IMG/VR virus record: IMGVR_UViG_3300017651_000186
Span: 1 to 36,057 of that record
Reading direction: 5' to 3' (one strand)
Length of the DNA stretch: 36,057 bases
Source: a virus
Taxonomy: Duplodnaviria > Caudoviricetes
Positions within the stretch are counted from its first letter, which is position 1. Each line of letters opens with the position of its first letter. Under the pieces are notes generated by a model. The model saw only the letters and a program-made list of their open reading frames with translations. It was not told the DNA's origin and searched no databases. This document shows, piece by piece, positions 1 through 36,057 of this stretch. The translations under genes were made by a program, and so were the position numbers.

Positions 1-393
1 TCATGGTGCGTCTCCTGCGTGAGCCCGAGCGTCTCGCTCGAGCGGGTGATCTCGGTACCAGTGACGCCCGGGGAGGAGCCCGAGTGCGCAGAGGACGAGG
101 TAGGCGGGGACGTAGAGCGGGCCGAGGACCATTGCCTGGCGCTGGTGACGCCTCTCGTGACCGAGGAGCGCCGGCGATGGTTCGCCCACGCAGATCGTGA
201 GGACGCCGATCGTGATCGCTGCCATCCCCCAGCGCCGGGACCACCAGGCCCAGACCCGAGACCGCTCCCCGTCGAAGAGGAGGATCCCCTCGGCGCGCCG
301 CCTCCGACAGCCGGTGAGCTGGGCGAGGAGGACGCCGGCGAGCGTCCAGGGCGATGCCCAGACGTGGCCGACGAGCTCAACGGTGACGCGCAT
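1..393 (-). CDS. Small membrane protein with HExxH (HERRH) zincin-like motif
   Basis: True start is probably ATG at 393 (TGATG overlap with the upstream stop), inside the 1..1071 ORF. Hydrophobic segments, 'LLGHERRHQRQ' and 'HPLERDA'. Confidence 0.65.
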   Translation of the reverse strand: MRVTVELVGHVWASPWTLAGVLLAQLTGCRRRRAEGILLFDGERSRVWAWWSRRWGMAAITIGVLTICVGEPSPALLGHERRHQRQAMVLGPLYVPAYLVLCALGLLPGRHWYRDHPLERDARAHAGDAP

Positions 394-893
394 CAGGCGG
401 CCGCCTCGTCCTCGAGAGGGAGGCGCCGGAAGCCGAGGAGGCCCTTCCGGTAGTGGTGGGTCTCGAACCTCCGGTGGGACGCCCCCGAGGCCCGCGCCTG
501 GGGGATCGACGTCGTCGCCGACCCTCCTCCCGACATGCCGGCGACGGCGAAGATCCCTGGCGTGGTCTCCTCGAGGACGATCATCACGTGGGTGGCCTTC
601 GCCGGCGTCCCGTAGAACACCAGATCCCCGGGGCGCGGGTCGTCCGTAGCCTCGAGGTCGCGCCACATCGAGTCCGCCGTCGCCCTCCCGCGGGGCAGCC
701 GTACTCCGACCTGGTCGCACCACCAGACGATGTGCCCGCTGCAGTCGTGCCCCTCGGCGGGGCGCCGGTGGCCGGCCCAGACGTAGAAGAGCACCGGGCC
801 CTGCCGCTCCCGGGTCTCGCGGACGAGGTCCTCCTGCCAGGCGACGAGCTCGGCGCGGCGCGTGGTGGGGGAGCACATCAGGGGATTGGCCAC
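393..893 (-). CDS. NlpC/P60 cysteine peptidase, probable endolysin
   Basis: YVWAG...DCSG, 'PRPGDLVFY' and 'THVMI' motifs. GTG start at 893 preceded by GAGGAGG. Distal end of the late operon. Confidence 0.8.
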   Translation of the reverse strand: MANPLMCSPTTRRAELVAWQEDLVRETRERQGPVLFYVWAGHRRPAEGHDCSGHIVWWCDQVGVRLPRGRATADSMWRDLEATDDPRPGDLVFYGTPAKATHVMIVLEETTPGIFAVAGMSGGGSATTSIPQARASGASHRRFETHHYRKGLLGFRRLPLEDEAAA

Positions 894-916
894 GGGACCT
901 CCTCGGGGGGATGGGG

Positions 917-944
917 TTGACGCCCGGCCGATCCGCTGTAGGGT
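917..944 (+). promoter_or_regulatory. Putative sigma70 promoter for the lipoprotein moron
   Basis: TTGACG-N16-TAGGGT, followed by GGAGG RBS and ATG at 962. Confidence 0.5.
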
Positions 945-961
945 CGTACTGGAGGTCAACG

Positions 962-1435
962 ATGATTCGTCTTGCCTTGCTGGTGGTGACGGTGGCTTTC
1001 GCCGCGTGCGGTGGGGACGACGGCTCTTCGTCGGGCGTCGACCCGACGTGCACCGACGTCGACACGCTCACCGGCCCGCGCGAATACTGCGCCGACGAGT
1101 TCGGCCGCTACCCAGACGCGCCGGACGGGTGCTTCCGGTTCACAGTCGATCCGGAGGTGAGCGAGGACACCGCGATCTTCTGCCCGCCGGCGGAGTGGGC
1201 CAGCGATTGGTTCACGTGGCGCACTGAAACGGTCTGCAACCGAGACGGGCGCGAGCGCTGGCAGATGGCGATTCGAGCTTCCGACGGCGGAGCGCGTCCC
1301 GGAGAGACCGTCAGGTCCTGCGGGATCGCTGCCGACTGCATGCGAGACGCCGTCCTTGGGAACGACGCGTGCTGTTCCGCGACGACGCCCGCGAGCTCGC
1401 CGCTCTATTGGAACTGCGACGGCAGCCCCATCTAG
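962..1435 (+). CDS. Cys-rich lipoprotein (moron)
   Basis: MIRLALLVVTVAFAA|CGGDD lipobox, 10 further Cys, GGAGG RBS, opposite strand to flanking genes. Confidence 0.8.
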   Translation: MIRLALLVVTVAFAACGGDDGSSSGVDPTCTDVDTLTGPREYCADEFGRYPDAPDGCFRFTVDPEVSEDTAIFCPPAEWASDWFTWRTETVCNRDGRERWQMAIRASDGGARPGETVRSCGIAADCMRDAVLGNDACCSATTPASSPLYWNCDGSPI

Positions 1436-3571: not shown

Positions 3572-4078
3572 CTAGAACACCTGGATGCAAACGAGGCGGG
3601 CGCCCTTGAGAATGTCGTTCGGGATCTCGAAGATGAACTCCGAGAGACCAGCCTGAAAGTCGATGCCAAACGAGAGGGCCGACTCTGCGGCAATCGCGGT
3701 GTCCATCTCGACGAACACGCGGCCTCGGTGCGCCGCCTTCGCGTTGAGACCCGCGACCTTCCCGACGATTCGCGCAGGGTTCCAGAACTCCCATCTCGCG
3801 TCGCCGTCCCACGCGCCGTAGCTCCAGACCGGCGGCGCGTCGGCCCACTTCTCAACGTCGTACTGCGTGACGACGCCAGCCGGCCGCGCGAACAAGCGTG
3901 ACGCGATCGGCTGCCCGACAGGCTGGTGTATGCCGCCATTCGGGTCGAAATGCCGATGCTGCTCGGAGAACATGGCGTAGGCGTCGCCGAGACGCTCGCC
4001 CAAACGATTCACGAGCTGCACCGGGAGCACATCGCCAGGACGAAGCCGGTGCGGCAGAGGTTTGAATGGCAGGCTCAT
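3572..4078 (-). CDS. Minor tail protein (EH..GxH paralogue 3)
   Basis: Coupled to neighbours; 'EQHRHFDPNGGIHQP' motif. Confidence 0.55.
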   Translation of the reverse strand: MSLPFKPLPHRLRPGDVLPVQLVNRLGERLGDAYAMFSEQHRHFDPNGGIHQPVGQPIASRLFARPAGVVTQYDVEKWADAPPVWSYGAWDGDARWEFWNPARIVGKVAGLNAKAAHRGRVFVEMDTAIAAESALSFGIDFQAGLSEFIFEIPNDILKGARLVCIQVF

Positions 4079-4551
4079 CGGTCGCCGAAGACCTCGAGCA
4101 AGAAACTGTAGTCCCTACGTACCCACGCCAACTCCTTGGTATCCCAGGAGCCGATTGCAATGCGCGTGTACCGGCGCGTCTTCGCCGCCGCGCCGACGTC
4201 GGCGCCGAAAACGTAGTCCGTCGTCGCGTAGCCTCGCGCGCCGGCGATCCAGTGGTCGCGGGTCCGCATGTCGAAATCGAGCTCCACCTCGATGGTCCCG
4301 GTGGACAGCCGGCTGACGCCGCCGATCCCGCGTTGCGCTCGGACGATGTACGCGGCGCCGGTCCACTCCACGATCGCGGCCGCCTGCGCGATCGGCTGCC
4401 CGTGGACACCCGCGAGGAGCGTGCCCAGGTGATGCTCGACGCCCATGACCCCGCGCATGTCGCGCGAGACGCGCGGGGCTTTGTTCGCGTCGGTCGGGGA
4501 CCACGGATCGCCCGCCGCCTTGACGATCCGCTCGAAGCGCAAATCAGGCAT
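4075..4551 (-). CDS. Minor tail protein (EH..GxH paralogue 2)
   Basis: ATGA overlap with the downstream gene; 'VEHHLGTLLAGVHGQP' motif. Confidence 0.55.
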   Translation of the reverse strand: MPDLRFERIVKAAGDPWSPTDANKAPRVSRDMRGVMGVEHHLGTLLAGVHGQPIAQAAAIVEWTGAAYIVRAQRGIGGVSRLSTGTIEVELDFDMRTRDHWIAGARGYATTDYVFGADVGAAAKTRRYTRIAIGSWDTKELAWVRRDYSFLLEVFGDR

Positions 4552-4554
4552 GGT

Positions 4555-5037
4555 TCAGTCCCACCAAAGGAGGAGCGCGAACGGCATCGGGTAATTCGCG
4601 AAGCCCGAGTCGGTGTTCTCGAATTTGATCTCGCAGCCATTGGGAACGAGCTTGCTCACCGTCGCGTTCGCCCAGTCGACGTGCCCCCAGTTGTGGAAGT
4701 AGGCCGCCGCCGCGTAGACGCCGAGCGAGGTTCCCCACGAGACCGTGGCGGTGCCGAAGCCGACGGTCGCCGAGACGCCTGCGGCGGTGGCCTTCTCCCC
4801 GTCGAACACAGAGCCCGCCTCGATTGCCCCGCCGGAGCCGACGCGGATCACCGCCTTGGGGACCTTCAATGTGTTGTGCTTGCCGCCGAGCGCGTGCTCC
4901 AGGCCGACGACATCGGCGAGCGAGCGCGTCCACAGGCACGCGGCGTTGATCCCGTGGAGGTCCGTATCAGCCGGCGCCTCGACGGCGATGATGTCTCTTG
5001 CGCCGTAGGACTCGAGCACTTCGTAGAGATCAGGCAC
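4555..5037 (-). CDS. Minor tail protein (EH..GxH paralogue 1)
   Basis: GTG start overlapping the upstream gene; 'LEHALGGKHNT' motif. Confidence 0.55.
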   Translation of the reverse strand: MPDLYEVLESYGARDIIAVEAPADTDLHGINAACLWTRSLADVVGLEHALGGKHNTLKVPKAVIRVGSGGAIEAGSVFDGEKATAAGVSATVGFGTATVSWGTSLGVYAAAAYFHNWGHVDWANATVSKLVPNGCEIKFENTDSGFANYPMPFALLLWWD

Positions 5038-5809: not shown

Positions 5810-7857
5810 GCGTGCCTCGGCTGCTGCATCCAGCGCATCGACGCCGCCTGCTCGAGCCCGCCCTGCCGGGAGTTGATTCGCTGCACCCGCGCGCCTTCCT
5901 GCCGTGAGAATGCCCCCATGGCGTCAACCGAATCCCATGCGCTGACGTAGTTGTTGACGACCGTCACCCCGCCGCCGCGGCCGCGCGACGGCAACCCCTT
6001 CCCGCCCGCCAGGCGCATCGCCTCCGGCATGCCGCCGAGGTCGTCGGCGATCACGTCTCGCGGGAGGACGACCTCCTGCTCATGCAGCCACGTTGGCTTG
6101 GCGTCGTTGTTCACGCCAGGCAGCACCGCGAGGCCACGCCTCCCCTGGGGGATCGCGTAGGAGAACGGCACGCCGCCGTCCTCGAAGAAGCCGCCGACGA
6201 GGCCCAGCCCGGCGCCGACGGGCGCCATTCCCGCCATCGCGAAAATGCCGGCCGCCGCCCCAAGGATCCCTTTGAAGAGGTCCCGGGGGTCGTTGCTCTC
6301 GTAGTACGCCTTGAATCCGTGCCCAAACGCCGCCGCCGCCTGCATTCCGGCGATGGCCATCTCGCCGTCCTTCTTCGACTGCTCTCTTGCGGCCTTCTCG
6401 ACGACGGCAGTCTTCTGTTTCTCGAGGTTCTCGATCGCCTGAAGGGCGGCCGGTGCGGAGGCCTCATCGGCGGCGAGCCGTCGCGCTTGCTTGAGCTTCT
6501 CCTCGATCGCCTCGAGCGCCACTTGCATCCGGCGGTCGATCGCGGCGAAGGGGTCTGCCTCCGCGAGTGCGTTGGCGAGGTCCGCCTGGCTCTGCTTGGC
6601 GAGGAGCGCCGCGCGTCGAGCGGCGTCCATCGCCCCTCGATCCATTTCCTCCTGGAGCCGCCTCTGCTCTTCGACCTGCTTCGCGATGTTGAGGCCGAAC
6701 GCCGACCCATCGTCCCCGGTGAGCTTCGCGGCATCGCGCGCGGCTTGCTCCGCGGCGAGCATCTTGGCACCCCGGAACTCGCCAAGCCTGCCGAATCCCT
6801 TCGGCCCGGCAGCCGCTCCCCGAACTCCCCCCTTCGCCCCGTCGGACGGGCGCCCGATCCCGGCAGTGGGGTCGCGAGGGTCGACCCGGTTCTGGCCCTC
6901 GACGTCGGCGATGGCCCGCGCCCGCTCGAGCTCGTACTCGGCGTCGCGGACGATCCTCTCGAGTTCGGCGCGCTTCTCCGTGTAGTCGCCGACTCGTTCG
7001 CGCAGCACCTTCAACTCGGCCGCGAGCGACTTGGCTTCGGCCTCGGTCTTGCCCTGGAAAGCGAGCGGACCGCCGATCTGATCGAGGCGGGCCTTGTCGG
7101 CGTCGAGGGCGGCGAGGTTTCCGGCCGCCTGGTCGAATCCGACTTGAGCCGAAACGACGTTCCTCTCTCCCTGGGTCGTGAGGCCGTAGAAGCGTTCCTG
7201 CATCTGCAGGTGCTTCGCGAGCTCGTCGTTGGCGTTGCGGACTTCGTCGGTGGTGGCACGCCAGGCCGCCACCTGCGCGATCTTGGCCTCCTCTGCTGCC
7301 TTCGACGTCTCGCGAATGTTCGAGGCGACGGTGGCGACCGCAGCGCCCGTCCCGGCAATCGCCAGCGCGACTAGGCCGCCCGAAGCGAAAGTGCTGGCCA
7401 GGCCGAGGCCGAGCTTCCCTACGCTCCCAACCGCGCTGCCGGCTTCGCCTCCCAGGCGGGCGATGAGGCTGGTCACGTCCTTCACGGGCTTTCGCAGCCC
7501 GAGGATCGCTTCCCCCTGCTTCTTCGACTCCCGCTCGAGGATTTCGGCCTGCTTCTTTGCCTCCTGCTCGATCAGCTCGGTCTTACGCTTCTCGTACCGA
7601 GCGATGATGTCGGCTTTGGCCTTTTCGACCTGGTCGACGACGTCCTTGCTTCGTGCGCCGGCGCGCTCGAGGGCGGCGAGCTGGCGCTGGAGCTGGAGCT
7701 CGGCCGCCTTCGCGGGGTCCCCGCGCGCGATGATCTTGGCGATCTCCTTCTGCGCCTTCTCGTGGGCGGCTGCCGCTCGGCGCAGCGCCTCCTCGTCCTC
7801 CGTAAGAACCTCGGGCAGGTTCGAGCTAGCCGTGATCGGAATACTGACGTTGGCCAC
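5806..7857 (-). CDS. Tail tape measure protein
   Basis: 683 aa, Ala/Glu/Lys coiled-coil with Gly/Ala hydrophobic stretches; follows the chaperone genes. Confidence 0.85.
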   Translation of the reverse strand: MANVSIPITASSNLPEVLTEDEEALRRAAAAHEKAQKEIAKIIARGDPAKAAELQLQRQLAALERAGARSKDVVDQVEKAKADIIARYEKRKTELIEQEAKKQAEILERESKKQGEAILGLRKPVKDVTSLIARLGGEAGSAVGSVGKLGLGLASTFASGGLVALAIAGTGAAVATVASNIRETSKAAEEAKIAQVAAWRATTDEVRNANDELAKHLQMQERFYGLTTQGERNVVSAQVGFDQAAGNLAALDADKARLDQIGGPLAFQGKTEAEAKSLAAELKVLRERVGDYTEKRAELERIVRDAEYELERARAIADVEGQNRVDPRDPTAGIGRPSDGAKGGVRGAAAGPKGFGRLGEFRGAKMLAAEQAARDAAKLTGDDGSAFGLNIAKQVEEQRRLQEEMDRGAMDAARRAALLAKQSQADLANALAEADPFAAIDRRMQVALEAIEEKLKQARRLAADEASAPAALQAIENLEKQKTAVVEKAAREQSKKDGEMAIAGMQAAAAFGHGFKAYYESNDPRDLFKGILGAAAGIFAMAGMAPVGAGLGLVGGFFEDGGVPFSYAIPQGRRGLAVLPGVNNDAKPTWLHEQEVVLPRDVIADDLGGMPEAMRLAGGKGLPSRGRGGGVTVVNNYVSAWDSVDAMGAFSRQEGARVQRINSRQGGLEQAASMRWMQQPRHA

Positions 7858-8212
7858 GGGTCACCTGGAGGACGGCGGATCGGATGTGGACGGACTCGCC
7901 CGACAGGACGTCGAGCGCGTGCATCAGAAGGGCGTCTTGCTCTTCGAGGCCGCCGGCGCGCGGGAGCACGCCAGGCCATGCCGTCATGCGGGCGTAGACG
8001 GGCGCAGCCTCGAGGAAGAGGGGCTGGAGGGCGTGGGCGGAGGGGCAGTCCTTCACCCGCACCCGCGGTCGCCCGGTGCCGTCTTCGCCGACTAGATGCT
8101 CGCCGGCGAAGAGTTCGACTCCGCATCGGCTGCAGCCGACGGGGGGAGAGAAGCGGCGGTCGTCGCGGTCGTCGTACCACCAGAGCCACCACGCCGCCGC
8201 TCGTAGTTTTTT
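7826..8212 (-). CDS. -1 frameshift extension of the tail assembly chaperone (gpGT-like)
   Basis: The -1 frame is open from the slippery site through LRAAAWWLWWY...CSRC... into the 7826..8062 ORF. Confidence 0.8.
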   Translation of the reverse strand, partial: KKLRAAAWWLWWYDDRDDRRFSPPVGCSRCGVELFAGEHLVGEDGTGRPRVRVKDCPSAHALQPLFLEAAPVYARMTAWPGVLPRAGGLEEQDALLMHALDVLSGESVHIRSAVLQVTRGQRQYSDHG

Positions 8213-8583
8213 GAGGCACGCTCCGAGAGAGAGTTCGCCGCGGAGACGGCGCCGATGAGCCCTGCGAACACGCCGCCGTCGAAGGGGTACTCCCTTGCGG
8301 CCAAGTCGAAGAGGGGCGCCAGGGAGGTCGCCGGCTCCCCATCGATGACGAGCTCGCCGACCGGGCCCTCGAGGATCCCCTCGAAGAGCGCCGCGATCGT
8401 CTCTGGGGCGACGCCGTCGCCCTGCAGCTCTGCGCGGATCGCAGCCGCCCGCTCCCGAAAGAGAGCGAAGTCTGCGCTCGAGAGGCGCTTCGCTTCGACG
8501 GCGAACGGGTCCGGTGAAGCGTGGTTGCCGAGGAGCTCCGGGTAGACCCGGAGCATGCGGTTCTTGAACGTGAGTTCTGCCAT
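8092..8583 (-). CDS. Tail assembly chaperone (gpG-like)
   Basis: Real start MAELTFKN at 8583 inside the long shadow ORF; lies between tail tube and TMP. Confidence 0.8.
   Translation of the reverse strand: MAELTFKNRMLRVYPELLGNHASPDPFAVEAKRLSSADFALFRERAAAIRAELQGDGVAPETIAALFEGILEGPVGELVIDGEPATSLAPLFDLAAREYPFDGGVFAGLIGAVSAANSLSERASKNYERRRGGSGGTTTATTAASLPPSAAADAESNSSPASI
8206..8212 (-). other. Programmed -1 ribosomal frameshift heptamer A AAA AAC
   Basis: TCA AAA AAC in the chaperone frame; X XXY YYZ pattern. Confidence 0.8.
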
Positions 8584-8591
8584 GACCTCTC

Positions 8592-11995: not shown

Positions 11996-12859
11996 TCAGG
12001 CGGCGACCTTCGAGATGATCTTCACCGCCCGCGCTTCCTCGATCTCGCCGACGCCGTAGACCGACGTCGCGACCATCGCCGTCGACCTGGCCTTGGCGTT
12101 GCGCTCCGCCTCGACGCGGACGTCGCGCAGGGTCGCCATGCCGAAGGCCTCGACGCTGAAGAAGCACCCGACGAAGTCCACGTTGGCGTTCGCCTTCGGG
12201 ACGTGGGTCGAGCGGAAGAGCGGCACACCGAGGAAGTCCCCCACGAAACCGGGGATCGCCTTGATCCGGGGATCGACGAGGCCGGTGGCGTAGATGGACG
12301 CCTGGGAGCCGCTGGCACCAGCGATGGCGCGACGGTACGCGCCGACCTGGCGGGGCGCGAGGACGCCGAAATAGGGCCCCTCGTCGTCCGCGGTCTCGAG
12401 GGTCTCGATCGCCTTGATGAGCGTGTCGAGGGAAAGCTCGGTGTTGGTGGTGCCGACGGACTGGGTGACGCCGGTGAAGAGCCCGCAGAGGTCGCTCTCC
12501 ATCTTCTGCCGGATGGCCTTCGCGCCGCGGTCGGCGTACTCCTCGGGGGTGATGCCCGAGGTCTCCACCGACAGGTCGGTGGGCTCGAGCACGGCGCCGA
12601 CCTCGCCCACGGTGATGTCCGCCTTGCCGAGCGTCATCTCCTGGGCCTCGAGGGACGTGGTCTCGTTCACGCCGGCGGCGACGACTTCGCCCCACTGCGT
12701 CGTGCTCCACGTCTTCGAGCGCTTGTTCCGCAGGTCGCCCTGCGTAACGAGCATCGGCATGACGAGCGTCGCCATGAGCCGCTCGCGGATCATCTGCTCG
12801 ATGTGCTTCGCGAGGATTGCGTTCGTCACCGAGGTGGTGGACGTCAGAACGTTTGCCAT
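11996..12859 (-). CDS. Major capsid protein (HK97 fold)
   Basis: 287 aa; 'GFVGDFLGVPLFRSTHVP' and 'VYGVGEI' motifs; follows scaffold. Confidence 0.85.
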   Translation of the reverse strand: MANVLTSTTSVTNAILAKHIEQMIRERLMATLVMPMLVTQGDLRNKRSKTWSTTQWGEVVAAGVNETTSLEAQEMTLGKADITVGEVGAVLEPTDLSVETSGITPEEYADRGAKAIRQKMESDLCGLFTGVTQSVGTTNTELSLDTLIKAIETLETADDEGPYFGVLAPRQVGAYRRAIAGASGSQASIYATGLVDPRIKAIPGFVGDFLGVPLFRSTHVPKANANVDFVGCFFSVEAFGMATLRDVRVEAERNAKARSTAMVATSVYGVGEIEEARAVKIISKVAA

Positions 12860-13607: not shown

Positions 13608-13883
13608 TCAGCCGCCGAAAAACGATCTCGCGGCGGCGCTACCTGCCGATCCGATGACCGCGCCGCCGGCGGACCCAGCGAGGGCCCAGAGGAGCAAGCG
13701 CAGCTCGATCCGATCGAGCCGACGGCCGTGCTCTTCCTGCCGGTTGGCGATCGCCTGCAGTTGCTGGCCCTGCGCATCAACCCGCTTGTCGAGGAGCTCG
13801 TGGCGCACCTTCTGCCGATCGAGCGACCCACCGATCCCGTTGACGCGCTCTTCGAGGCTCATCGGATCCCATCCTCTCGCCAC
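13608..13883 (-). CDS. Coiled-coil protein with C-terminal TM helix (XhlA/holin-like)
   Basis: Heptad region followed by 'LLLWALAGSAGGAVIG'; start may be ATG at 13862. Confidence 0.5.
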   Translation of the reverse strand: MARGWDPMSLEERVNGIGGSLDRQKVRHELLDKRVDAQGQQLQAIANRQEEHGRRLDRIELRLLLWALAGSAGGAVIGSAGSAAARSFFGG

Positions 13884-13931
13884 AACGGGGCGGCGCGGGA
13901 GTAATCGAGGGAGAGGCGATGGTGCGTGCCC

Positions 13932-16900
13932 CTAGTTGCCACGGAACACCATCACGTCAGCGAAGCAGTCGTTCGATACGGTGGTGGCGGTGGCCGCCTG
14001 TACGCCCGATCCGGTGAGGGTCTTATCCTCGATCGCGGCGGCGACGCCGTATCCGTTCTGGACGATCCAGCTCGAGAAGCCGCCCGACAGCGTTCGTCCG
14101 GTGTACCCTGTGCCTGGGGTGAGGTTGAACGTGTCGGCCTCGGAGCAGGTGATGATGCCCGTCACCAGGTCTCCTGGCGCGCCCGCTGCGGCGGTGTTCC
14201 CCGAGGAGAGCGCAGTGGTGGCCACGTTCGTCTTCCCCGCAGAATTGACCAGCGTGGCCGATTTGAGGGAGTACTCGGCGACGGCGAGGGCAGACCGGGT
14301 AGTGGCATTCGCCAGCGAGACCGCGATGGTCTTCTCGGTCCCGGTGGCGACCTTCCACATCACGTAGCTCATGAACTTCGGAGCATCCTTCACCGACTGG
14401 CCGGCGCGCGCGAGCGTCCACCCGGCTGGAGGCGTGGGCATCGTGTTGGTGCCGCCGCCGAGGATGAGCCCGGCGACGAGCAGGTTCCCGGACTGCGCCG
14501 TGGCGGGGAGCGTGACGGAGATGTTCTGCGTGTTGTAGTAGGTCGTGCCCGCGCCCTGGACGTAGAGGTTCATGCCTCCACCGTCACCGCCCGTGCCGCC
14601 CGTACCACCCGTACCACCCGTACCGCCGGTTCCGCCGGTTCCACCGGTGCCACCTGTACCGCCGCCTTCGATCTGGACGATCGGGCTTATCATGAAGGAC
14701 CATGCGTTCCATTCATTGACGGGCATCACATTGCCTGGATAGTACAGGCCGTTGTATACGGTTTGTGATAGGAACGTGGACCCGTTTGCGGGAGCTACGA
14801 TCGGCCCGACCGTCTTCTGTGAGAGGTGATACCCCTCAATCCACGCAATGCGGAAGGCGGAGTAAACCGAGACGACGTAGAGCCGATTCGGGGTCAGAGC
14901 CACAGGAGTAGACAAGTTCGCGGTGTGCCACTGATTGCCGCCCGTTCTCGAGACAACGGTTGCGACGCCGATCTCCTCGCGAGTGGTGTAGTCCCACACC
15001 CGGAGGGTTACGTTTTGGGCTCCAGTGCCGCCTCCCACGTAGAACTGAACGCCGGTCAGGGTGGATGTCTCGGTCACATGGAAGGCGGTGCCGTAGGTTT
15101 CGCCGGAGGAGTTGTCGGTGTTTGAGGGGGTCTCCGAGCCTGCGAACAACTGGTAGGTTCCGGGCCCCACAGCGCCGCCGCTGCCCCCGGAGCCACCCGT
15201 GCCACCCGTGCCACCCGTGCCACCCGTGCCGCCCGTGCCGCCCCACTCGCTGGCGTCGAACCGCGCCTTGGCCGGGAGCGTGCCCACGCGCTCGCTCGGC
15301 GAAGCGCCGTGGGGGTTCACCCAGGGCCACGTCGCGCTGGCGAAGAAGGTCGGCTTGCTGGAGAGGTACAGCGAGTTCGGGATCGGTCCCGGCGGCGTGG
15401 GCTCGGTGTCGATGCGCTGCCGTACGTTGTCGTAGTTGGCGACCCGGAGGAGCGTCGAGTACGTGCTGTTAGGGGCTCCCGGAGACTGGTAGTTCCCGTT
15501 GTCGTCGATGCCGTTGCCCGCGCCCAAGCCGTGACCGATGCGCCAGACGGCGGCCTTGCCAGGCCCCGGAGAGTTGCTGGTCACCTCGTACGCCATGTCG
15601 CCGTTGGCGCCAGTCCCATTTCCAAGGCGTTCGGAGCTGCCTACTACGTTCCCCACCGCGCTGATGAAATGACCGTCCTTTTGGAAGGACATTGCGGTGA
15701 TGGGATATGTCTCGAAGGCGTTGGTGCGTCGCTGCTTTCCGCTCGCGTAGTTCCGGTAGACCGTCATCCAACCGGAGTTGCCCCACACGTTCTCCGTGGC
15801 GATCTGCGCCGCCCAGTTCCCCTCCGCCAAGTCCATGAAGCTGAACGACGTGTGGCCCAGGTCGAGGGTCGTCTCTTGGAGGCGTCGATCGGCGCTGGTC
15901 CAGGCGTCGTCGATGTAGTTATACCCGATCACGTTTCCGCCACCCGAGGCGCGGAGGGTGAACGGCTTGTTCATGTAGTAGATGATGTTGTTTTCGATGA
16001 GGGAGTCGCTCGTGTGGGTCGAGATCGACACCCCGTAAGCCCCGCCGCCCTGCACCACGTTGGAGGCGTGATGTACGAAGGAATCCCGCACTTCGAAGCG
16101 GAAGCATCGGTCTAGCAGGATGTGCGTCCCTTTCATCCCGTTGCCGCTGCCCAGGGTCCCGTCCGCCGCCGGGCTTGAGGAAACCGTGCCGTCCGACTCC
16201 ACGTTCTTCACCCACGAGTACGCGGCGTACATCACGTGGATCTGGTTGTTGGTCCCGCCGGTCACGGTCATGTCCTCGATGCCGGCGTTCTTCAAGGCGT
16301 TCGAGGTCGTCCCGCTCGGCTTGTAGATTTGCGGCAGGAGCGCGAGCCTGTACCCAAGGTGGATGGGCGCAGCCAGGGTGAGCGTGTTCCCGTTGATGGC
16401 GGTGATTTCGTTGGTCTGCCCTTGGGAGCGCATCCGGTTCCCCGGTGTCGCCGGGCCGATGTCGGTCCGCTTGAACCACTGGGAGCCGCCGTAGAAGACG
16501 TAGGAGTCTTCATCCTGGTCGATCTGAATAATGCTGCCCACCGACAGCCCCGTGGTGTTGGCCACCTGGATGGTCGTCGCGCCCTTGGGAACGTCCGCGG
16601 TGACGTTGATGGCGGGGTTCCCGTAGAACGGCCAGTCCCCCGGCCACATGTAGACGACGGCCGAGTTGGCGTTGTAGAGGCGTAGCTGCGTCTGCCCCGG
16701 GCCCGCTCCGCGCAGCGTCACCGACTTGCCGATGGAGACCGCGGAGTTGATGCGGTAGGTGCCGGCGGGGAGGTAGACCACCTGCCCGGTAGGACAGGCG
16801 TTCAACGCATGCTGGATCGCCGGCTGCGCGTTCCCTGTGCCGTCGAGGGCGAAGGCCGTCAGCCCGTTCGCCGAGGCGTAGGCCGGCGTCACCGTCGCGC

Positions 16901-17294
16901 AGACGCTGGTGCGGCTGGGGATCCCTCCCACCGCCATCATGCCCGGGTTCCACGTCGTCCTTCGCGACGAAGCGATCAGGTCCTCGAGGGGGTACTCCCC
17001 ACCTACTCCTCCAGCGCCAGCATCGCCTCCCGCTCCTCCAGCGCCAGCATCGCCTCCTCCCGCTCCTCCAGCGCCAGCATCGCCTCCTCCCGCTCCTCCA
17101 GCGCCAGCATCGCCTCCTACTCCTCCAGCGCCGCCAGCGCCGCCAGCTCCGCCCGAGCCGCCTATCCCGCCTGTCCCGCCGCCCGGCACACGTTTCGCGC
17201 GCGTGGTGGTGGGGGTCTCAAGGCCGCCGATCTCGAGGGCGACGCCGGTCGCGGGGACGGCGAGCGCCGCCAGCGCGAGGAGGAGGAACCTCAT
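13932..17294 (-). CDS. Secreted multidomain protein: signal peptide, Gly/Ala linker, pectate-lyase-like beta-helix, DUF4082-like domain, C-terminal beta-sandwich
   Basis: Signal peptide MRFLLLALAALAVPATGVA. Beta-helix cap 'AIQHALNACP..VVYLPAGTYRI..VTLRGAG'. DUF4082-like 'GTAFHV..LTGVQFY..WHTANLSTPVALTP..YVVS'. GGT linkers between domains. Confidence 0.75.
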   Translation of the reverse strand: MRFLLLALAALAVPATGVALEIGGLETPTTTRAKRVPGGGTGGIGGSGGAGGAGGAGGVGGDAGAGGAGGGDAGAGGAGGGDAGAGGAGGDAGAGGVGGEYPLEDLIASSRRTTWNPGMMAVGGIPSRTSVCATVTPAYASANGLTAFALDGTGNAQPAIQHALNACPTGQVVYLPAGTYRINSAVSIGKSVTLRGAGPGQTQLRLYNANSAVVYMWPGDWPFYGNPAINVTADVPKGATTIQVANTTGLSVGSIIQIDQDEDSYVFYGGSQWFKRTDIGPATPGNRMRSQGQTNEITAINGNTLTLAAPIHLGYRLALLPQIYKPSGTTSNALKNAGIEDMTVTGGTNNQIHVMYAAYSWVKNVESDGTVSSSPAADGTLGSGNGMKGTHILLDRCFRFEVRDSFVHHASNVVQGGGAYGVSISTHTSDSLIENNIIYYMNKPFTLRASGGGNVIGYNYIDDAWTSADRRLQETTLDLGHTSFSFMDLAEGNWAAQIATENVWGNSGWMTVYRNYASGKQRRTNAFETYPITAMSFQKDGHFISAVGNVVGSSERLGNGTGANGDMAYEVTSNSPGPGKAAVWRIGHGLGAGNGIDDNGNYQSPGAPNSTYSTLLRVANYDNVRQRIDTEPTPPGPIPNSLYLSSKPTFFASATWPWVNPHGASPSERVGTLPAKARFDASEWGGTGGTGGTGGTGGTGGSGGSGGAVGPGTYQLFAGSETPSNTDNSSGETYGTAFHVTETSTLTGVQFYVGGGTGAQNVTLRVWDYTTREEIGVATVVSRTGGNQWHTANLSTPVALTPNRLYVVSVYSAFRIAWIEGYHLSQKTVGPIVAPANGSTFLSQTVYNGLYYPGNVMPVNEWNAWSFMISPIVQIEGGGTGGTGGTGGTGGTGGTGGTGGTGGDGGGMNLYVQGAGTTYYNTQNISVTLPATAQSGNLLVAGLILGGGTNTMPTPPAGWTLARAGQSVKDAPKFMSYVMWKVATGTEKTIAVSLANATTRSALAVAEYSLKSATLVNSAGKTNVATTALSSGNTAAAGAPGDLVTGIITCSEADTFNLTPGTGYTGRTLSGGFSSWIVQNGYGVAAAIEDKTLTGSGVQAATATTVSNDCFADVMVFRGN
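14575..14665 (-). repeat. (GGT)n-encoding 9-bp tandem repeats, linker 3
   Basis: gtaccaccc / ccgccggtt units. Confidence 0.8.
15175..15245 (-). repeat. (GGT)n-encoding 9-bp tandem repeats, linker 2
   Basis: gccacccgt repeated about 4-5 times. Confidence 0.8.
17003..17150 (-). repeat. 27-30 bp tandem repeats encoding GGDAGAGGAG, linker 1
   Basis: ctcctccagcgccagcatcgcctcc occurs 4 times. Confidence 0.85.
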
Positions 17295-17626
17295 CCTCGA
17301 TCAGCCCTCACGAACTCCACGGCTCCTGACGAGGACGATCGGCACGACACCGTCTGGGACCCGTTGAAGAACACGGGGATCTGTGTACCGGCGACGAGCG
17401 TCGCGCCACCCGTGGTGCACGTCGCTGCGTAGCAGAGCGCAACGTCGCCGACGGAAACGGTGAGGATGTAGCTCCCACGCGGCACCGAGACCGAGGAACC
17501 TCCGCCCGAAGAGCACGTCGGCACCTTCGTCACCAGGTGCGGATAGAGGACGTACCGCTCCGCGGAGGCGGGCAGGGCGAAAGCCAGCGCGGCCATGAAG
17601 GCCACGAAGAGAAGGATCGAGCGCAT
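17291..17626 (-). CDS. Small secreted beta-rich protein with 4 Cys
   Basis: Signal peptide MRSILLFVAFMAALAFALPASA; AGGAG RBS; ATGA-coupled to the 1120-aa gene. Confidence 0.7.
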   Translation of the reverse strand: MRSILLFVAFMAALAFALPASAERYVLYPHLVTKVPTCSSGGGSSVSVPRGSYILTVSVGDVALCYAATCTTGGATLVAGTQIPVFFNGSQTVSCRSSSSGAVEFVRADRG

Positions 17627-17635
17627 TGGGGTCTC

Positions 17636-19180
17636 CTACTCGGCGCCGCCGGTGCCGGTGCCGGCGCCGAAGGCTTCGGGGTACTTCATCCGCAGCTCGG
17701 GGATCGTCATCCGACCCCACTCGGAATTTGGGTGAGGGCCGAGGCCCTTCGCGGCGCGGATCTCGTCGAGGACGATCACGCCGTTGAGCTGGTCGTACGC
17801 GAAGAGCTCGGGCCGGACCGGGAGCGTCGGAAGGAGCTTTCGCGCCTCCTCTTCCGAGATCCCGCGGTCCTCGGCGAGCTGCTCGACGACGCTGCGCAGA
17901 CCGAGCTTCCGCTCCCGCTCGTAGACCTCGAGCTTCGCCTTGCGGGTCTCTGCCGCCTCCTGTGGCGACTGGACCACCGTCTCCTCGAGGACCTCGCAGG
18001 TGAACTCGGCGTTCGGATCGATGTGGTCCTTCGGAGCATGCGACGCGTTCCAGGCCGAGCGGTAGATCTCGGCGAGCGCGTACTCCGCCTCGACAATCGC
18101 GGGCACGTAGCGCCGGCGCCGCTCGATCACCTTCTGCCTGTCGAGGTAGAGCGACAAGCCCGACGGCGGCGCCTGGCCCGGGTTCTTCCCGATCGTCCCG
18201 GGGTTCAGGCCGTGCGACGCCAGGTGCTCGATCAGCATCGACTGGAGCGTCTCGTCGATCATCCGCGGATCGGACGCCATGTCGAGGACGTCGAACCGGG
18301 CGTTTCCGGTCACCTTCCAGATGTACCCGGGACCGGTGCGGTCGGGCGGCCTCCAGGACTTGTCGAGGTTCCCGCTCACCGCCACCTGCTTGTGGCTCTG
18401 CATGTGCAGTAGGTGCCGGAGCGCCGAGCGCGCTGCGAGGTAGTCGATCGCGAACTCCGCGCGGTCGGTGCCGGTCTCCGAATCCCAGAACCGATCGGGC
18501 GCCACGTCGGCATGGAAGGCCACGAAGGGCAGCCAGCCGAGCGGGTTCGCGTACGAGCTCGCCCCGGGCACCAGGCGCCGCTGTCGGCCGCCCTCGACAA
18601 GGAAGTGCTCGGTCGGCGTCCATACGACGGTGACTAGCTCGCCGTCCCGCAGGAGCTGGTCATACATGACCACTTCCGGCTGCGTCGGGTCGTCGACGCG
18701 CGGGATCACTGTGCACTCGTGCGGCCGAAACACCCGGAGGCTCGGGCGGCCCGCCTTCCCCTCGGCGCCAGGGATCCCCGGGAGCGCGCGGATCAGGCCG
18801 TCGTTGCAGCCGTCGAGCGTCTCGACGACCTTCTGCATGACGAGGTCGAAGGGCTCCTCGTTCTCCTCGAGGCGCGCGTAGACCTCGTCGCGCGTCGAGC
18901 CGTTCATGAACGCCCGGCGGGCCCCGCGGAACTGCGCGACCTCGTCGTTCACGAACTTGAAGACGTTGCAGCTCGAGTCCGCGAGCGTGCCGACTCGATC
19001 GGCGTCCTCGGGCCGCGCGAACATGTCGCGAAGGCGCGACCGCACGATCTCGCGGTAGTCCCCGACGAGGAGCTGGTGACGAACGCGCATCCGCCCGCGG
19101 CGGGTGCCGTCGTCCATCCTCAGCTTGTTCAGGTCCATGATCTTGTTCACGGCCCTCGACTCCGATCCGAACTCGATCAC
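17636..19180 (-). CDS. Portal protein
   Basis: 514 aa directly after terL; 'NPLGWLPFV' and 'SGLSL' motifs of SPP1-like portals. Confidence 0.8.
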   Translation of the reverse strand: MIEFGSESRAVNKIMDLNKLRMDDGTRRGRMRVRHQLLVGDYREIVRSRLRDMFARPEDADRVGTLADSSCNVFKFVNDEVAQFRGARRAFMNGSTRDEVYARLEENEEPFDLVMQKVVETLDGCNDGLIRALPGIPGAEGKAGRPSLRVFRPHECTVIPRVDDPTQPEVVMYDQLLRDGELVTVVWTPTEHFLVEGGRQRRLVPGASSYANPLGWLPFVAFHADVAPDRFWDSETGTDRAEFAIDYLAARSALRHLLHMQSHKQVAVSGNLDKSWRPPDRTGPGYIWKVTGNARFDVLDMASDPRMIDETLQSMLIEHLASHGLNPGTIGKNPGQAPPSGLSLYLDRQKVIERRRRYVPAIVEAEYALAEIYRSAWNASHAPKDHIDPNAEFTCEVLEETVVQSPQEAAETRKAKLEVYERERKLGLRSVVEQLAEDRGISEEEARKLLPTLPVRPELFAYDQLNGVIVLDEIRAAKGLGPHPNSEWGRMTIPELRMKYPEAFGAGTGTGGAE

Positions 19181-21759: not shown

Positions 21760-21835
21760 TGGCTGGCCCGCCTGGAGTCGAACCAGGGGCGCGGCGGTTA
21801 ACGGCCGCCTGCTCTACCTGCTGAGCTACGGACCA
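21760..21835 (-). tRNA. tRNA-Asn(GTT), phage-encoded, with CCA
   Basis: 76-nt cloverleaf: acceptor TGGTCCG/CGGGCCA, D-arm GCTC/GAGC, GGCGG-CCGTTAA-CCGCC, CCTGG-TTCGACT-CCAGG, G73, CCA. Confidence 0.9.
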
Positions 21836-34780: not shown

Positions 34781-36057
34781 CCATGCGCCGGGGCTACGTC
34801 TACGCGAAGGGGAAGCGCCTGTACCTCGCTTGGTACGACGCGAGCGGCGCGCGCCGACTCACGGCGGCGGGCCTCTCAGTGGGCCAGGAGGCCGAGGCCG
34901 AAAAGCGCCTGGCCGCCCTGCAGGCGCGGGCCGAGCGGGAGCGCGCGGTCTCGGGCGGCGGCCCGGTGACGGTGGCGAGCTGGGCCGACGAGTGGATCAA
35001 GGCCCGGGAGGAGAGGGGGATCGCCAGCGCGAAGGACGACCGGCAGCGCCTGCGGCTCTACATCAAGCCGGCCCTCGGGCGGGTGGCCCTGCGCGAGCTC
35101 GACGATCGCCAGGTGGAGGCGTTCGTCCGCGCCCTGGAGAAGCGCAAGAGCCGGATGGGCGGAACGCTGTCGCCGCGGACCGTGCTCCACATCTACGCGA
35201 CCCTGCGCCAGATGATGAAGGCGGCCGTGAAGGCGAAGCTGATCGCCGCGTCCCCTTGCACCCTCGAGGAGGGCGAGCTGCCCGAGCTCGACGACAAGGA
35301 TCCGGAGTGGAGGGACGGGGCGCGGTTCACGCGCGAGGAACTGGAGATCCTGATCTCCCACCCGGACATCCCCGAGTCCCGCCGCCTCGGCTACGCGATG
35401 ATGGGGCTCGGGGGGATGCGGTGGTGCGAGGTCGCCGCCCTTCGCTGGCGGCACTACGACACCAGCCTCGAGCCTCTCGGGCGCCTCAGCGTTCTCGTTT
35501 CCTTCTCGGATCGGCGGGGCTCGATCGGCCGGACGAAGACCCGGGGCACGCGCCTGGTCCCCGTGCACCCGGTCCTGGCGTCGATGCTCGCCGCGTGGCG
35601 GCTGCCCCGGCAGCCGGACGCCGAGGACCTCATCATCCCCGGGACGAAGAGGGAGACCCGCCGGACCTCCCTCGCCTACCGGGACCTGCAGCGCGACCTG
35701 GTCACCTTGGGCCTGCGGCCGCGCCGCCTCCACGACCTCCGGTCGACGATGATCTCGATCGCCCAGGACGACGGCGCGCCGCGAGAGGTGGTCCGGCAGA
35801 TCACCCACACCCGCGACAAGCGGGACGTCCTCGAGGGCTACACGAAGCGACAGTGGGCGACGCTCTGCAACGCCGTCTCCGGCATGCAGATCGAGCTGCG
35901 ACGGGGGGAGGTTATCGAGCTCCGGCAGGTCGCGAACGCTGCTACCGCTCTGCTACCGTTGGAGGACGAAAAGACGAAGGCCCCGAAATCCTTGAGGAAA
36001 TCGGGGCCTAAATTGGTGGGCGATGCTGGTTTCGAACCAGCGACCCCCGCCGTGTGA
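34777..36057 (+). CDS. int: Tyrosine integrase
   Basis: Catalytic R (GMRWCE), K (RTKT), HDLR, H (ITH), Y (EGY). Confidence 0.92.
   Translation: MTMRRGYVYAKGKRLYLAWYDASGARRLTAAGLSVGQEAEAEKRLAALQARAERERAVSGGGPVTVASWADEWIKAREERGIASAKDDRQRLRLYIKPALGRVALRELDDRQVEAFVRALEKRKSRMGGTLSPRTVLHIYATLRQMMKAAVKAKLIAASPCTLEEGELPELDDKDPEWRDGARFTREELEILISHPDIPESRRLGYAMMGLGGMRWCEVAALRWRHYDTSLEPLGRLSVLVSFSDRRGSIGRTKTRGTRLVPVHPVLASMLAAWRLPRQPDAEDLIIPGTKRETRRTSLAYRDLQRDLVTLGLRPRRLHDLRSTMISIAQDDGAPREVVRQITHTRDKRDVLEGYTKRQWATLCNAVSGMQIELRRGEVIELRQVANAATALLPLEDEKTKAPKSLRKSGPKLVGDAGFEPATPAV
35939..35958 (+). repeat. CTGCTACCG direct repeat x2 (putative Int arm sites)
   Basis: 35939-47 and 35950-58, 11-bp period, about 55 bp from the tRNA end. 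Confidence 0.5.
36014..36057 (-). tRNA. 3' half of tRNA-Val(CAC), truncated by window; att core
   Basis: TCACAC-GGCGG-GGGTC-GCTGG-TTCGAAA-CCAGC-ATCGCCC-A-CCA. Confidence 0.85.

What the first reader, a model, noticed from the sequence alone, without database searches (positions are those of the whole stretch)
13608..17626. Sec-exported 'base + fibre/depolymerase' cassette inside the head module (candidate new system)
Seen: between portal and scaffold, co-oriented and coupled, sit two proteins with clear signal peptides plus a small TM protein. One is a 111-aa beta protein with 4 Cys; the other is a 1120-aa beta-helix/DUF4082-like protein. Known: tailed-phage virion proteins assemble in the cytoplasm and normally lack signal peptides, and RcGTA uses a small spike base (GhsA) plus a polysaccharide-binding fibre (GhsB). 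Inference: 'LTVSVGDVAL..TLVAGTQIPV' loosely recalls such spike bases. These may be head spikes that mature in the periplasm and load onto capsids at lysis. Alternatively they are late-secreted enzymes that clear host EPS for progeny escape.
Basis: partly seen in the sequence, partly recalled or inferred. Interest (0 to 1): 0.85.

Follow-up and report, generated by a model that had tools for sequence, protein, structure and literature searches.

The report
Exported phage spike with captured enzyme
Among its head genes, a soil prophage encodes a small base protein and a large partner that both start with export-type leaders, and the partner carries a sugar-acting domain likely captured from host slime genes, so the pair likely folds outside the cytoplasm and would clip onto the virus particle when the cell bursts.

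Summary
The cassette is likely a base-plus-fibre spike, like the RcGTA head spike, that has gained Sec leaders. The 111-aa gene belongs to an unnamed family: 112 clusters, 103 with a leader by a crude test, four near-invariant Cys, predicted all-beta fold. In 16 of 16 related loci with a leader it is followed by another hydrophobic-leader gene. Of 15 such partners scanned, 10 pass the NCBIfam GTA head-spike-fibre model. A leaderless pair (L212) lacks the cysteines. The window's partner lacks that fibre domain. It keeps a 16-residue N-terminal peptide shared with a sister phage (12/16 identical) and carries a different cargo: a pectin-lyase-like domain 63-64% identical to myxobacterial chromosomal proteins, the closest inside an exopolysaccharide cluster. 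The base is not detectably homologous to Rcc01079, so it works like an RcGTA spike but is not shown to be a member of that family. Cleavage, virion location and enzyme activity are untested. This scan reported the same kind of cassette on other DNA (8 notes); I found it in no paper searched. Added here: a swap point right after the anchor peptide, and likely capture of a host secreted domain.

The parts
17291..17626 (-). Spike-base candidate, 111 aa: Sec-type leader (res 1-22) plus an 89-aa all-beta domain with C38, C65, C70, C95
   Evidence: AlphaFold2 pLDDT 95
17561..17626 (-). Predicted signal peptide of the base (n-region R, h-region, A-S-A cleavage site)
   Evidence: sequence; 12/22 identical to L005 against 65/89 in the mature part
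13932..17294 (-). Partner (fibre/cargo), 1120 aa, start overlapping the base stop (ATGA)
17238..17294 (-). Predicted signal peptide of the partner (res 1-19)
   Evidence: sequence; 10/19 identical to L005
17190..17237 (-). Conserved mature N-terminal peptide (res 20-35), candidate anchor to the base
   Evidence: 12/16 identical to the L005 partner, next 60 residues 8/60; DNA likeness to L005 ends at about 17191
16998..17183 (-). Gly/Ala-rich repeat linker (res 38-99)
15246..16997 (-). Pectin-lyase-like (predicted beta-helix) domain, res 100-683, likely captured from a myxobacterial exopolysaccharide-cluster gene
   Evidence: PF12708; 63% to P0006; 54 of 301 genomes, best 64%; cluster context; tree
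14667..15158 (-). DUF4082 domain between GGT linkers; lowest GC of the gene (GC 0.58, GC3 0.75)
13935..14573 (-). C-terminal domain, res 908-1120, two Cys; resembles unnamed clusters, two of the top three mostly viral
   Evidence: feature score 0.96, a lead only; no cultured-phage match
13608..13862 (-). Small coiled-coil + C-terminal hydrophobic segment protein, 84 aa; holin-like architecture by recall, function not shown
17636..19180 (-). Portal-position gene (context)
   Evidence: 62% to L005, 37% to L208
12925..13575 (-). Scaffold (context)
   Evidence: phrog_172 E 0.006
11996..12859 (-). Major capsid protein (context; presumed docking partner, untested)

Best explanation
The two genes likely encode a virion spike, a small beta-sandwich base plus a tethered cargo protein, that is predicted to be exported through Sec, to fold with disulfides in the periplasm, and would load onto finished particles, most likely at capsid vertices, during lysis. 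Shown: gene order and coupling, leaders on only these two late genes, a family that keeps leaders and four Cys together, partners in relatives with the RcGTA head-fibre domain, and a cargo swap right behind residue 35. Inferred: both genes are read with the late operon; signal peptidase frees the N-termini; the base pairs C38-C95 and C65-C70 and forms a ring; the freed peptide of the partner (res 20-35) docks on the ring, as residues 2-10 of Rcc01080 do on the Rcc01079 pentamer; the Gly linkers let a host-derived pectin-lyase-like domain and two further domains bind or cut the exopolysaccharide of the next host cell.
For: Family of 112 clusters at 50% identity, 103 passing a crude leader test. 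Four Cys in 94 of 100 aligned members, an even count in 98, and one member loses C38 and C95 together. Three leaderless homologues (L212, L213, P0222; hhalign 98.6%) keep 0, 1 and 1 of the four Cys, so leader and Cys go together as expected for real export. All 16 leader-bearing loci have the next gene within -4 to +7 nt with a hydrophobic N-terminus. 10 of 15 such partners scanned pass NF048003; L209's hits PDB 6tb9_F3 Rcc01080, E 1.4e-9. L212 holds a leaderless base and a leaderless NF048003 fibre between terminase and a portal-like gene: the ordinary cytoplasmic form of the same pair. All 8 inspected hits in Myxococcota genomes lie among phage-like genes. Best structural neighbours are small uncharacterised Caudovirales proteins (TM 0.6-0.73). 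Window and L005 share portal (62%), base (69%) and anchor peptide (12/16) but no cargo similarity. Decoration proteins can bind mature capsids in vitro (Dec; PMC7602432 passage).
Confidence: 0.6

Rival explanations
1. Both proteins are exported late but stay free: a soluble enzyme or decoy complex, released at lysis, that loosens host exopolysaccharide or occupies receptors, descended from a head spike but no longer on the particle.
For: The cargo is a host-type secreted polysaccharide-acting domain; other partners carry SGNH hydrolase domains (3 of 14 scanned); many relatives sit next to a small TM gene and a candidate lysin (read by eye; 0 of 5 candidates had a Pfam hit).
Against: A free enzyme needs neither the conserved base nor the conserved anchor peptide, and both are kept while the cargo changes. 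The fibre domain of the relatives is a virion part in RcGTA.
Confidence: 0.2
2. Lysogenic-conversion cargo (moron): a host-surface adhesin or slime-modifying enzyme expressed from the prophage.
For: GC3 of 0.81-0.83 against 0.91-0.95 in the flanking head genes; host-like domain with host-like export.
Against: Coupled to late genes; no promoter-like site in front of the base and no same-strand terminator behind the cassette in a consensus scan (weak for myxobacteria); no family member in the 29 host beta-helix loci; the cassette moves between head, tail and terminase positions of late operons.
Confidence: 0.08
3. The hydrophobic N-termini are not export signals but assembly peptides, like the Ile/Leu star of Rcc01080, and the pair assembles in the cytoplasm.
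For: Rcc01080 starts with a hydrophobic repeat; 11 partner leaders are short and atypical.
Against: Window, L005, L208, L210 and L211 have full n-h-c leaders on both genes; leaders diverge at least as fast as the mature parts; the Cys vanish in leaderless homologues.
Confidence: 0.07
4. The base polymerises into a disulfide-linked extracellular filament, like Bacillus endospore appendages (Ena), tipped by the large protein.
Against: The match does not stand above cupins and other generic jelly-rolls; the Cys pattern suggests intrachain pairs.
Confidence: 0.05

Closest known systems
RcGTA head spike: base Rcc01079 (GhsA) pentamer + fibre Rcc01080 (GhsB); PDB 6TB9; PMC7296036 and PMC5026251 (passages read)
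   Same: Small all-beta base gene directly followed by a fibre gene; partners in relatives carry the Rcc01080-type domain; a short conserved N-terminal peptide ahead of a flexible part; a likely polysaccharide target.
   Different: Leaders and paired Cys on both proteins, whereas Rcc01080 binds through residues 2-10 with no leader; base not detectably homologous to Rcc01079; the window's cargo is a host-type pectin-lyase-like domain, not the Rcc01080 domain.
Capsid-displayed enzymes: phi24B gp84 esterase (10.64898/2026.04.10.717836, passages) and HFTV1 turret base/head (PMC12494034, passages)
   Same: A carbohydrate-acting domain held on the head through a small anchor or base.
   Different: In the passages seen neither has an export signal; gp84 is modelled from Ala2. 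HFTV1's base is a hexamer on hexons.
Myxobacterial secreted PF12708 proteins of Wzx/Wzy exopolysaccharide clusters (P0006, named by its source as an Anaeromyxobacter dehalogenans protein; copies in G170, G374)
   Same: 63-64% identical domain; both N-terminal Cys present in 7 of 7 homologues shown (read by eye); exported.
   Different: Host copies have Ig-like or other N-terminal parts and no base gene nearby (0 of 29 loci); the phage copy has the anchor peptide and Gly linkers.
Sec-inserted coat proteins of filamentous phages, M13 pIII/pVIII (recalled, no call)
   Same: Virion proteins made with signal peptides.
   Different: Those phages extrude through the membrane; this one has terminase, an HK97-type capsid and a lysin.

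Membership tests
RcGTA-type head spike (Rcc01079/Rcc01080) | Base homologous in sequence to Rcc01079 | tested here: not met
   hhalign of A2 against four Rcc01079-like proteins (one confirmed against 6tb9_E3, E 5e-23): probability 0.1%, within 30 shuffled controls; the template is shallow
RcGTA-type head spike (Rcc01079/Rcc01080) | Base has the same small jelly-roll fold | tested here: inconclusive
RcGTA-type head spike (Rcc01079/Rcc01080) | Base gene directly followed by the partner gene | tested here: met
   Window and 16 of 16 leader-bearing loci
RcGTA-type head spike (Rcc01079/Rcc01080) | Fibre carries the NF048003 domain | tested here: not met
   No hit in the window's protein at E up to 1; met in 10 of 15 leader-bearing relatives and in L212
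RcGTA-type head spike (Rcc01079/Rcc01080) | N-terminal Ile/Leu-Gly star peptide anchors the fibre | tested here: inconclusive
   A conserved mature N-terminal peptide exists with hydrophobic residues at 1, 3 and 6, but it is not the five-fold repeat
RcGTA-type head spike (Rcc01079/Rcc01080) | Pentamer on capsid vertices of the particle | not testable with these tools
   Needs virions; five copies could not be modelled
RcGTA-type head spike (Rcc01079/Rcc01080) | No export leader (fibre binds through residues 2-10) | tested here: not met
   Leaders on both genes; RcGTA state from PMC7296036
Phage beta-helix depolymerase | Pectin-lyase-like beta-helix domain | tested here: inconclusive
   PF12708 above cut-off but only res 151-206; 7chu E 0.002; no structure predicted for this protein
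Phage beta-helix depolymerase | Catalytic activity on host polysaccharide | not testable with these tools
   Weak hit to a hyaluronate lyase family, 25 bits against a cut-off of 1100
Phage beta-helix depolymerase | Closest relatives are phage tail spikes | tested here: not met
   2 of 50,697 phage records match over 10% of the domain; none in viral contigs; 54 of 301 host-order genomes match
Moron (lysogenic conversion gene) | Own promoter and terminator | tested here: inconclusive
   None found by a sigma-70 consensus scan, which may miss myxobacterial signals
Moron (lysogenic conversion gene) | Expressed in the lysogen | not testable with these tools
   Needs RNA from a lysogen before and after induction
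Holin (small TM gene) | Small membrane protein beside the endolysin | tested here: inconclusive
   One hydrophobic segment; in the window the NlpC/P60 gene is 13 kb away; no family hit

The most novel reading that the evidence does not exclude
Tailed phages of myxobacteria finish their virions outside the cytoplasm: a Sec-exported, disulfide-bonded base and a peptide-tethered cargo wait in the periplasm and snap onto capsids at lysis. Because the cargo travels the host's own export route, the phage can graft ready-made secreted host domains onto its particle, here an enzyme domain from the host's own exopolysaccharide cluster, by recombining just behind a 16-residue anchor.
Probability: 0.5. 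Interest if true: 0.88.

Novelty: new variant of a known kind. Interest (0 to 1): 0.72.

Why it matters
Tailed-phage particles are taught to assemble wholly in the cytoplasm (established knowledge). A spike that matures in the periplasm would add a second compartment and a post-lysis step to assembly, allow disulfide-stabilised virion parts, and explain how phages get through myxobacterial slime by borrowing host secreted domains. The sister-phage comparison marks the likely docking peptide to 16 residues, which makes binding and display tests cheap. The leaderless pair in L212 gives a matched control.

Tried and rejected
Complex prediction of four base copies with the 30-residue partner peptide: no answer (score 0.02, mark 0.32, controls not folded). 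It is no evidence either way; five copies could not be modelled. Fold searches: Rcc01079 was not among the listed rows, which does not exclude the fold. Single-sequence model of the base was poor (pLDDT 64) and was replaced. Pfam, PHROGs, NCBIfam and PDB sequence searches name no family for the base. Viral-contig scans with base, capsid, beta-helix, terminase and the anchor motif found nothing; the portal scan gave 2 distant loci, and L001 shows no such cassette behind its portal. Pattern scans were mostly chance: 1 of 60, 7 of 8 (one a repeat of L062), 1 of 120. Three weak genome hits (G093, G138, G287; E about 2e-4 to 3e-4) were dropped uninspected; only 11-15 candidates a genome were scored. 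The portal was found in 1 of 401 genomes, so cassette presence across the lineage rests on three phages. The base tree is poorly resolved (1 of 16 branches starred) and cannot say whether leaders were gained or lost. DUF4082 and C-terminal domains have no cultured-phage match. No RNA holder listed. The host flanks of L003/L004 could not be read, so the host is inferred from homologues only. Look-ups of earlier findings by sequence and by relatives were empty.
Full report
Setting. The window is a 36-kb virus record with an integrase at its right end, terminase, scaffold and major capsid genes and an NlpC/P60 gene at its left end. The same stretch lies letter for letter in two metagenome contigs of 111 and 161 kb (L003, L004), which fits a prophage. 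Holders are soil metagenome runs that may be the source. A myxobacterial host is inferred from homologues, not shown.

Observation. It is confirmed with two corrections. Of 19 late genes only the 111-aa and 1120-aa genes have an N-terminal hydrophobic core. No SignalP was available; my test is a hydropathy, charge and cleavage-motif heuristic.

Context of the family. I obtained 16 distinct leader-bearing loci besides the window's own copies: L005-L007, L062/L075, L068-L072, L074 (viral by selection), L153 in an Archangium MAG, and L207-L211 from a search of 401 genomes of that phylum. In 16 of 16 the next gene starts within -4 to +7 nt and has a hydrophobic N-terminus; 5 are full leaders and 11 are short, mostly without a basic residue. 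Of 15 partners scanned (L006's is cut by the contig end), 10 pass NF048003, the GTA head-spike fibre model; L005 scores 16.6 bits and L007, L069, L208 and L211 have no hit. L209's partner hits Rcc01080 in PDB 6TB9. All 8 inspected genome hits lie among phage-like genes: terminase by Pfam in L208, L211 and L212, the rest read by eye. The cassette sits behind the portal, ahead of or behind terminase, or behind tail-fibre-like genes, so it moves as a unit.

Natural control. L212 has a homologue without leader and without Cys, followed by a leaderless NF048003 fibre, between terminase and a portal-like gene. L213 and P0222 are also leaderless; the three align to the family at 98.6% and keep 0, 1 and 1 of the four Cys. 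Leader and Cys going together is what export to an oxidising compartment predicts. The direction of change is unresolved.

The large protein. It reads: leader (1-19), peptide (20-35), Gly linker, PF12708-type domain (100-683), GGT linker, DUF4082, GGT linker, unnamed C-terminal domain. The sister phage L005 shares portal (62%), base (69%) and the small TM gene (82%); DNA likeness ends at about 17191, at the end of the peptide, and resumes at 13877. The peptide is 12/16 identical, the next 60 residues 8/60, and the cargo shows no BLAST hit to those of L005, L208 or L211, which resemble one another. The window therefore holds the swapped cargo. That domain has 880 homologues among 7,995 candidates scored and occurs in 54 of 301 genomes of the host order, often in several copies. 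The closest copies, in G170 (64%) and G374 (50%), lie among glycosyltransferase, Wzy and acyltransferase genes, in G170 also flippase, Wza-type export and sugar-transferase genes (23 of 44 called genes scanned). In a 34-row quick tree the phage copy nests among these cellular and metagenomic sequences (midpoint root, contexts of the three nearest rows unknown, no one-clade test), so capture from the host is likely but the donor is not fixed. Phage records hold almost nothing like it. Activity and fold were not tested.

Third and fourth genes. A third gene with a hydrophobic N-terminus and 2-14 Cys follows the partner in 12 of 13 leader-bearing relatives examined; L005 has an HExxH lipoprotein-like gene there instead, and the window has neither. 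It may cap the usual fibre and have been lost with the swap (inference). A small TM/coiled-coil gene follows within four genes in the window and in 11 of 12 relatives with enough sequence, often ahead of a candidate lysin (read by eye). It is probably a lysis accessory, not a spike part.

Mechanism. In RcGTA a base pentamer binds capsid pentamers by its N-termini and holds fibre residues 2-10; the fibre binds capsule (PMC7296036, passages). Here both N-termini would be freed by signal peptidase. Export separates the parts from capsids until the membrane fails, so loading would occur at lysis; some decoration proteins do bind mature capsids in vitro (PMC7602432, passages). I give this 0.6, a free released enzyme or decoy 0.2, a moron 0.08, non-export leaders 0.07 and a filament 0.05.

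Novelty. Seven literature searches (listings) showed no tailed-phage virion part matured by Sec. The decoration-protein review has 0 occurrences of signal, periplasm, disulfide or secret. A 2026 myxophage survey has 0 of signal peptide, spike, depolymerase or head fiber in its main text (10.64898/2026.09.14.751636; its supplements were not seen and may list these genes). PMC5026251 has two occurrences of 'signal peptide' that were not among the passages shown. Subscription journals are mostly not covered. This scan noted the same kind of cassette in eight other genomes; these are unchecked notes, not support. Verdict: a new variant of the base-plus-fibre head spike, not filed as an RcGTA family member; interest 0.72.

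Noticed in passing
window 393-887 (-): NlpC/P60 (CHAP-like) gene, the likely endolysin, 13 kb from the small TM gene.
   Followed up: partly
window 1-390 (-): Small membrane protein with an HExxH motif at the left end; HExxH proteins with hydrophobic N-termini also follow the cassette in L005, L007, L211 and L212.
   Followed up: no
window 911-1435 (+): Cys-rich lipoprotein-like gene on the opposite strand between tail and lysin genes, no Pfam hit; a better moron candidate than the cassette.
   Followed up: no
window 21760-21835 (-): tRNA-Asn(GTT) ahead of the terminase genes.
   Followed up: no
window 36015-36057 (+): The integrase frame ends inside a sequence that looks like a tRNA 3' half (T-loop GTTTCGAACC), a likely attachment site (read by eye).
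   Followed up: no
window 7826-8590 (-): Two overlapping frames between the major-tail-like gene and the tape-measure-like gene with a TTAAAAAA-type run (seen as translation SLGACLKK / ASKN), suggesting a tail-chaperone frameshift (inference).
   Followed up: no
window 3572-5037 (-): Three small similar-looking genes (160, 158, 168 aa) without family hits where tested, ahead of the 711-aa tail gene.
   Followed up: no
L007:2330-3484 (+); P0127, P0186: The base domain also occurs fused at the C-terminus of longer leader-bearing proteins.
   Followed up: partly
L071, L072, L074 partners: Head-spike-fibre domain joined to a C-terminal SGNH hydrolase.
   Followed up: partly
L216:1125-1349, L228:2199-2423: In two Rcc01079-type loci the Leu-Gly star peptide is on a separate 74-aa gene, not on the fibre.
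   Followed up: no
L218:2369-2653 (-): A third, unrelated small leaderless gene in front of an NF048003 fibre: several base families seem to serve the same fibre.
   Followed up: partly
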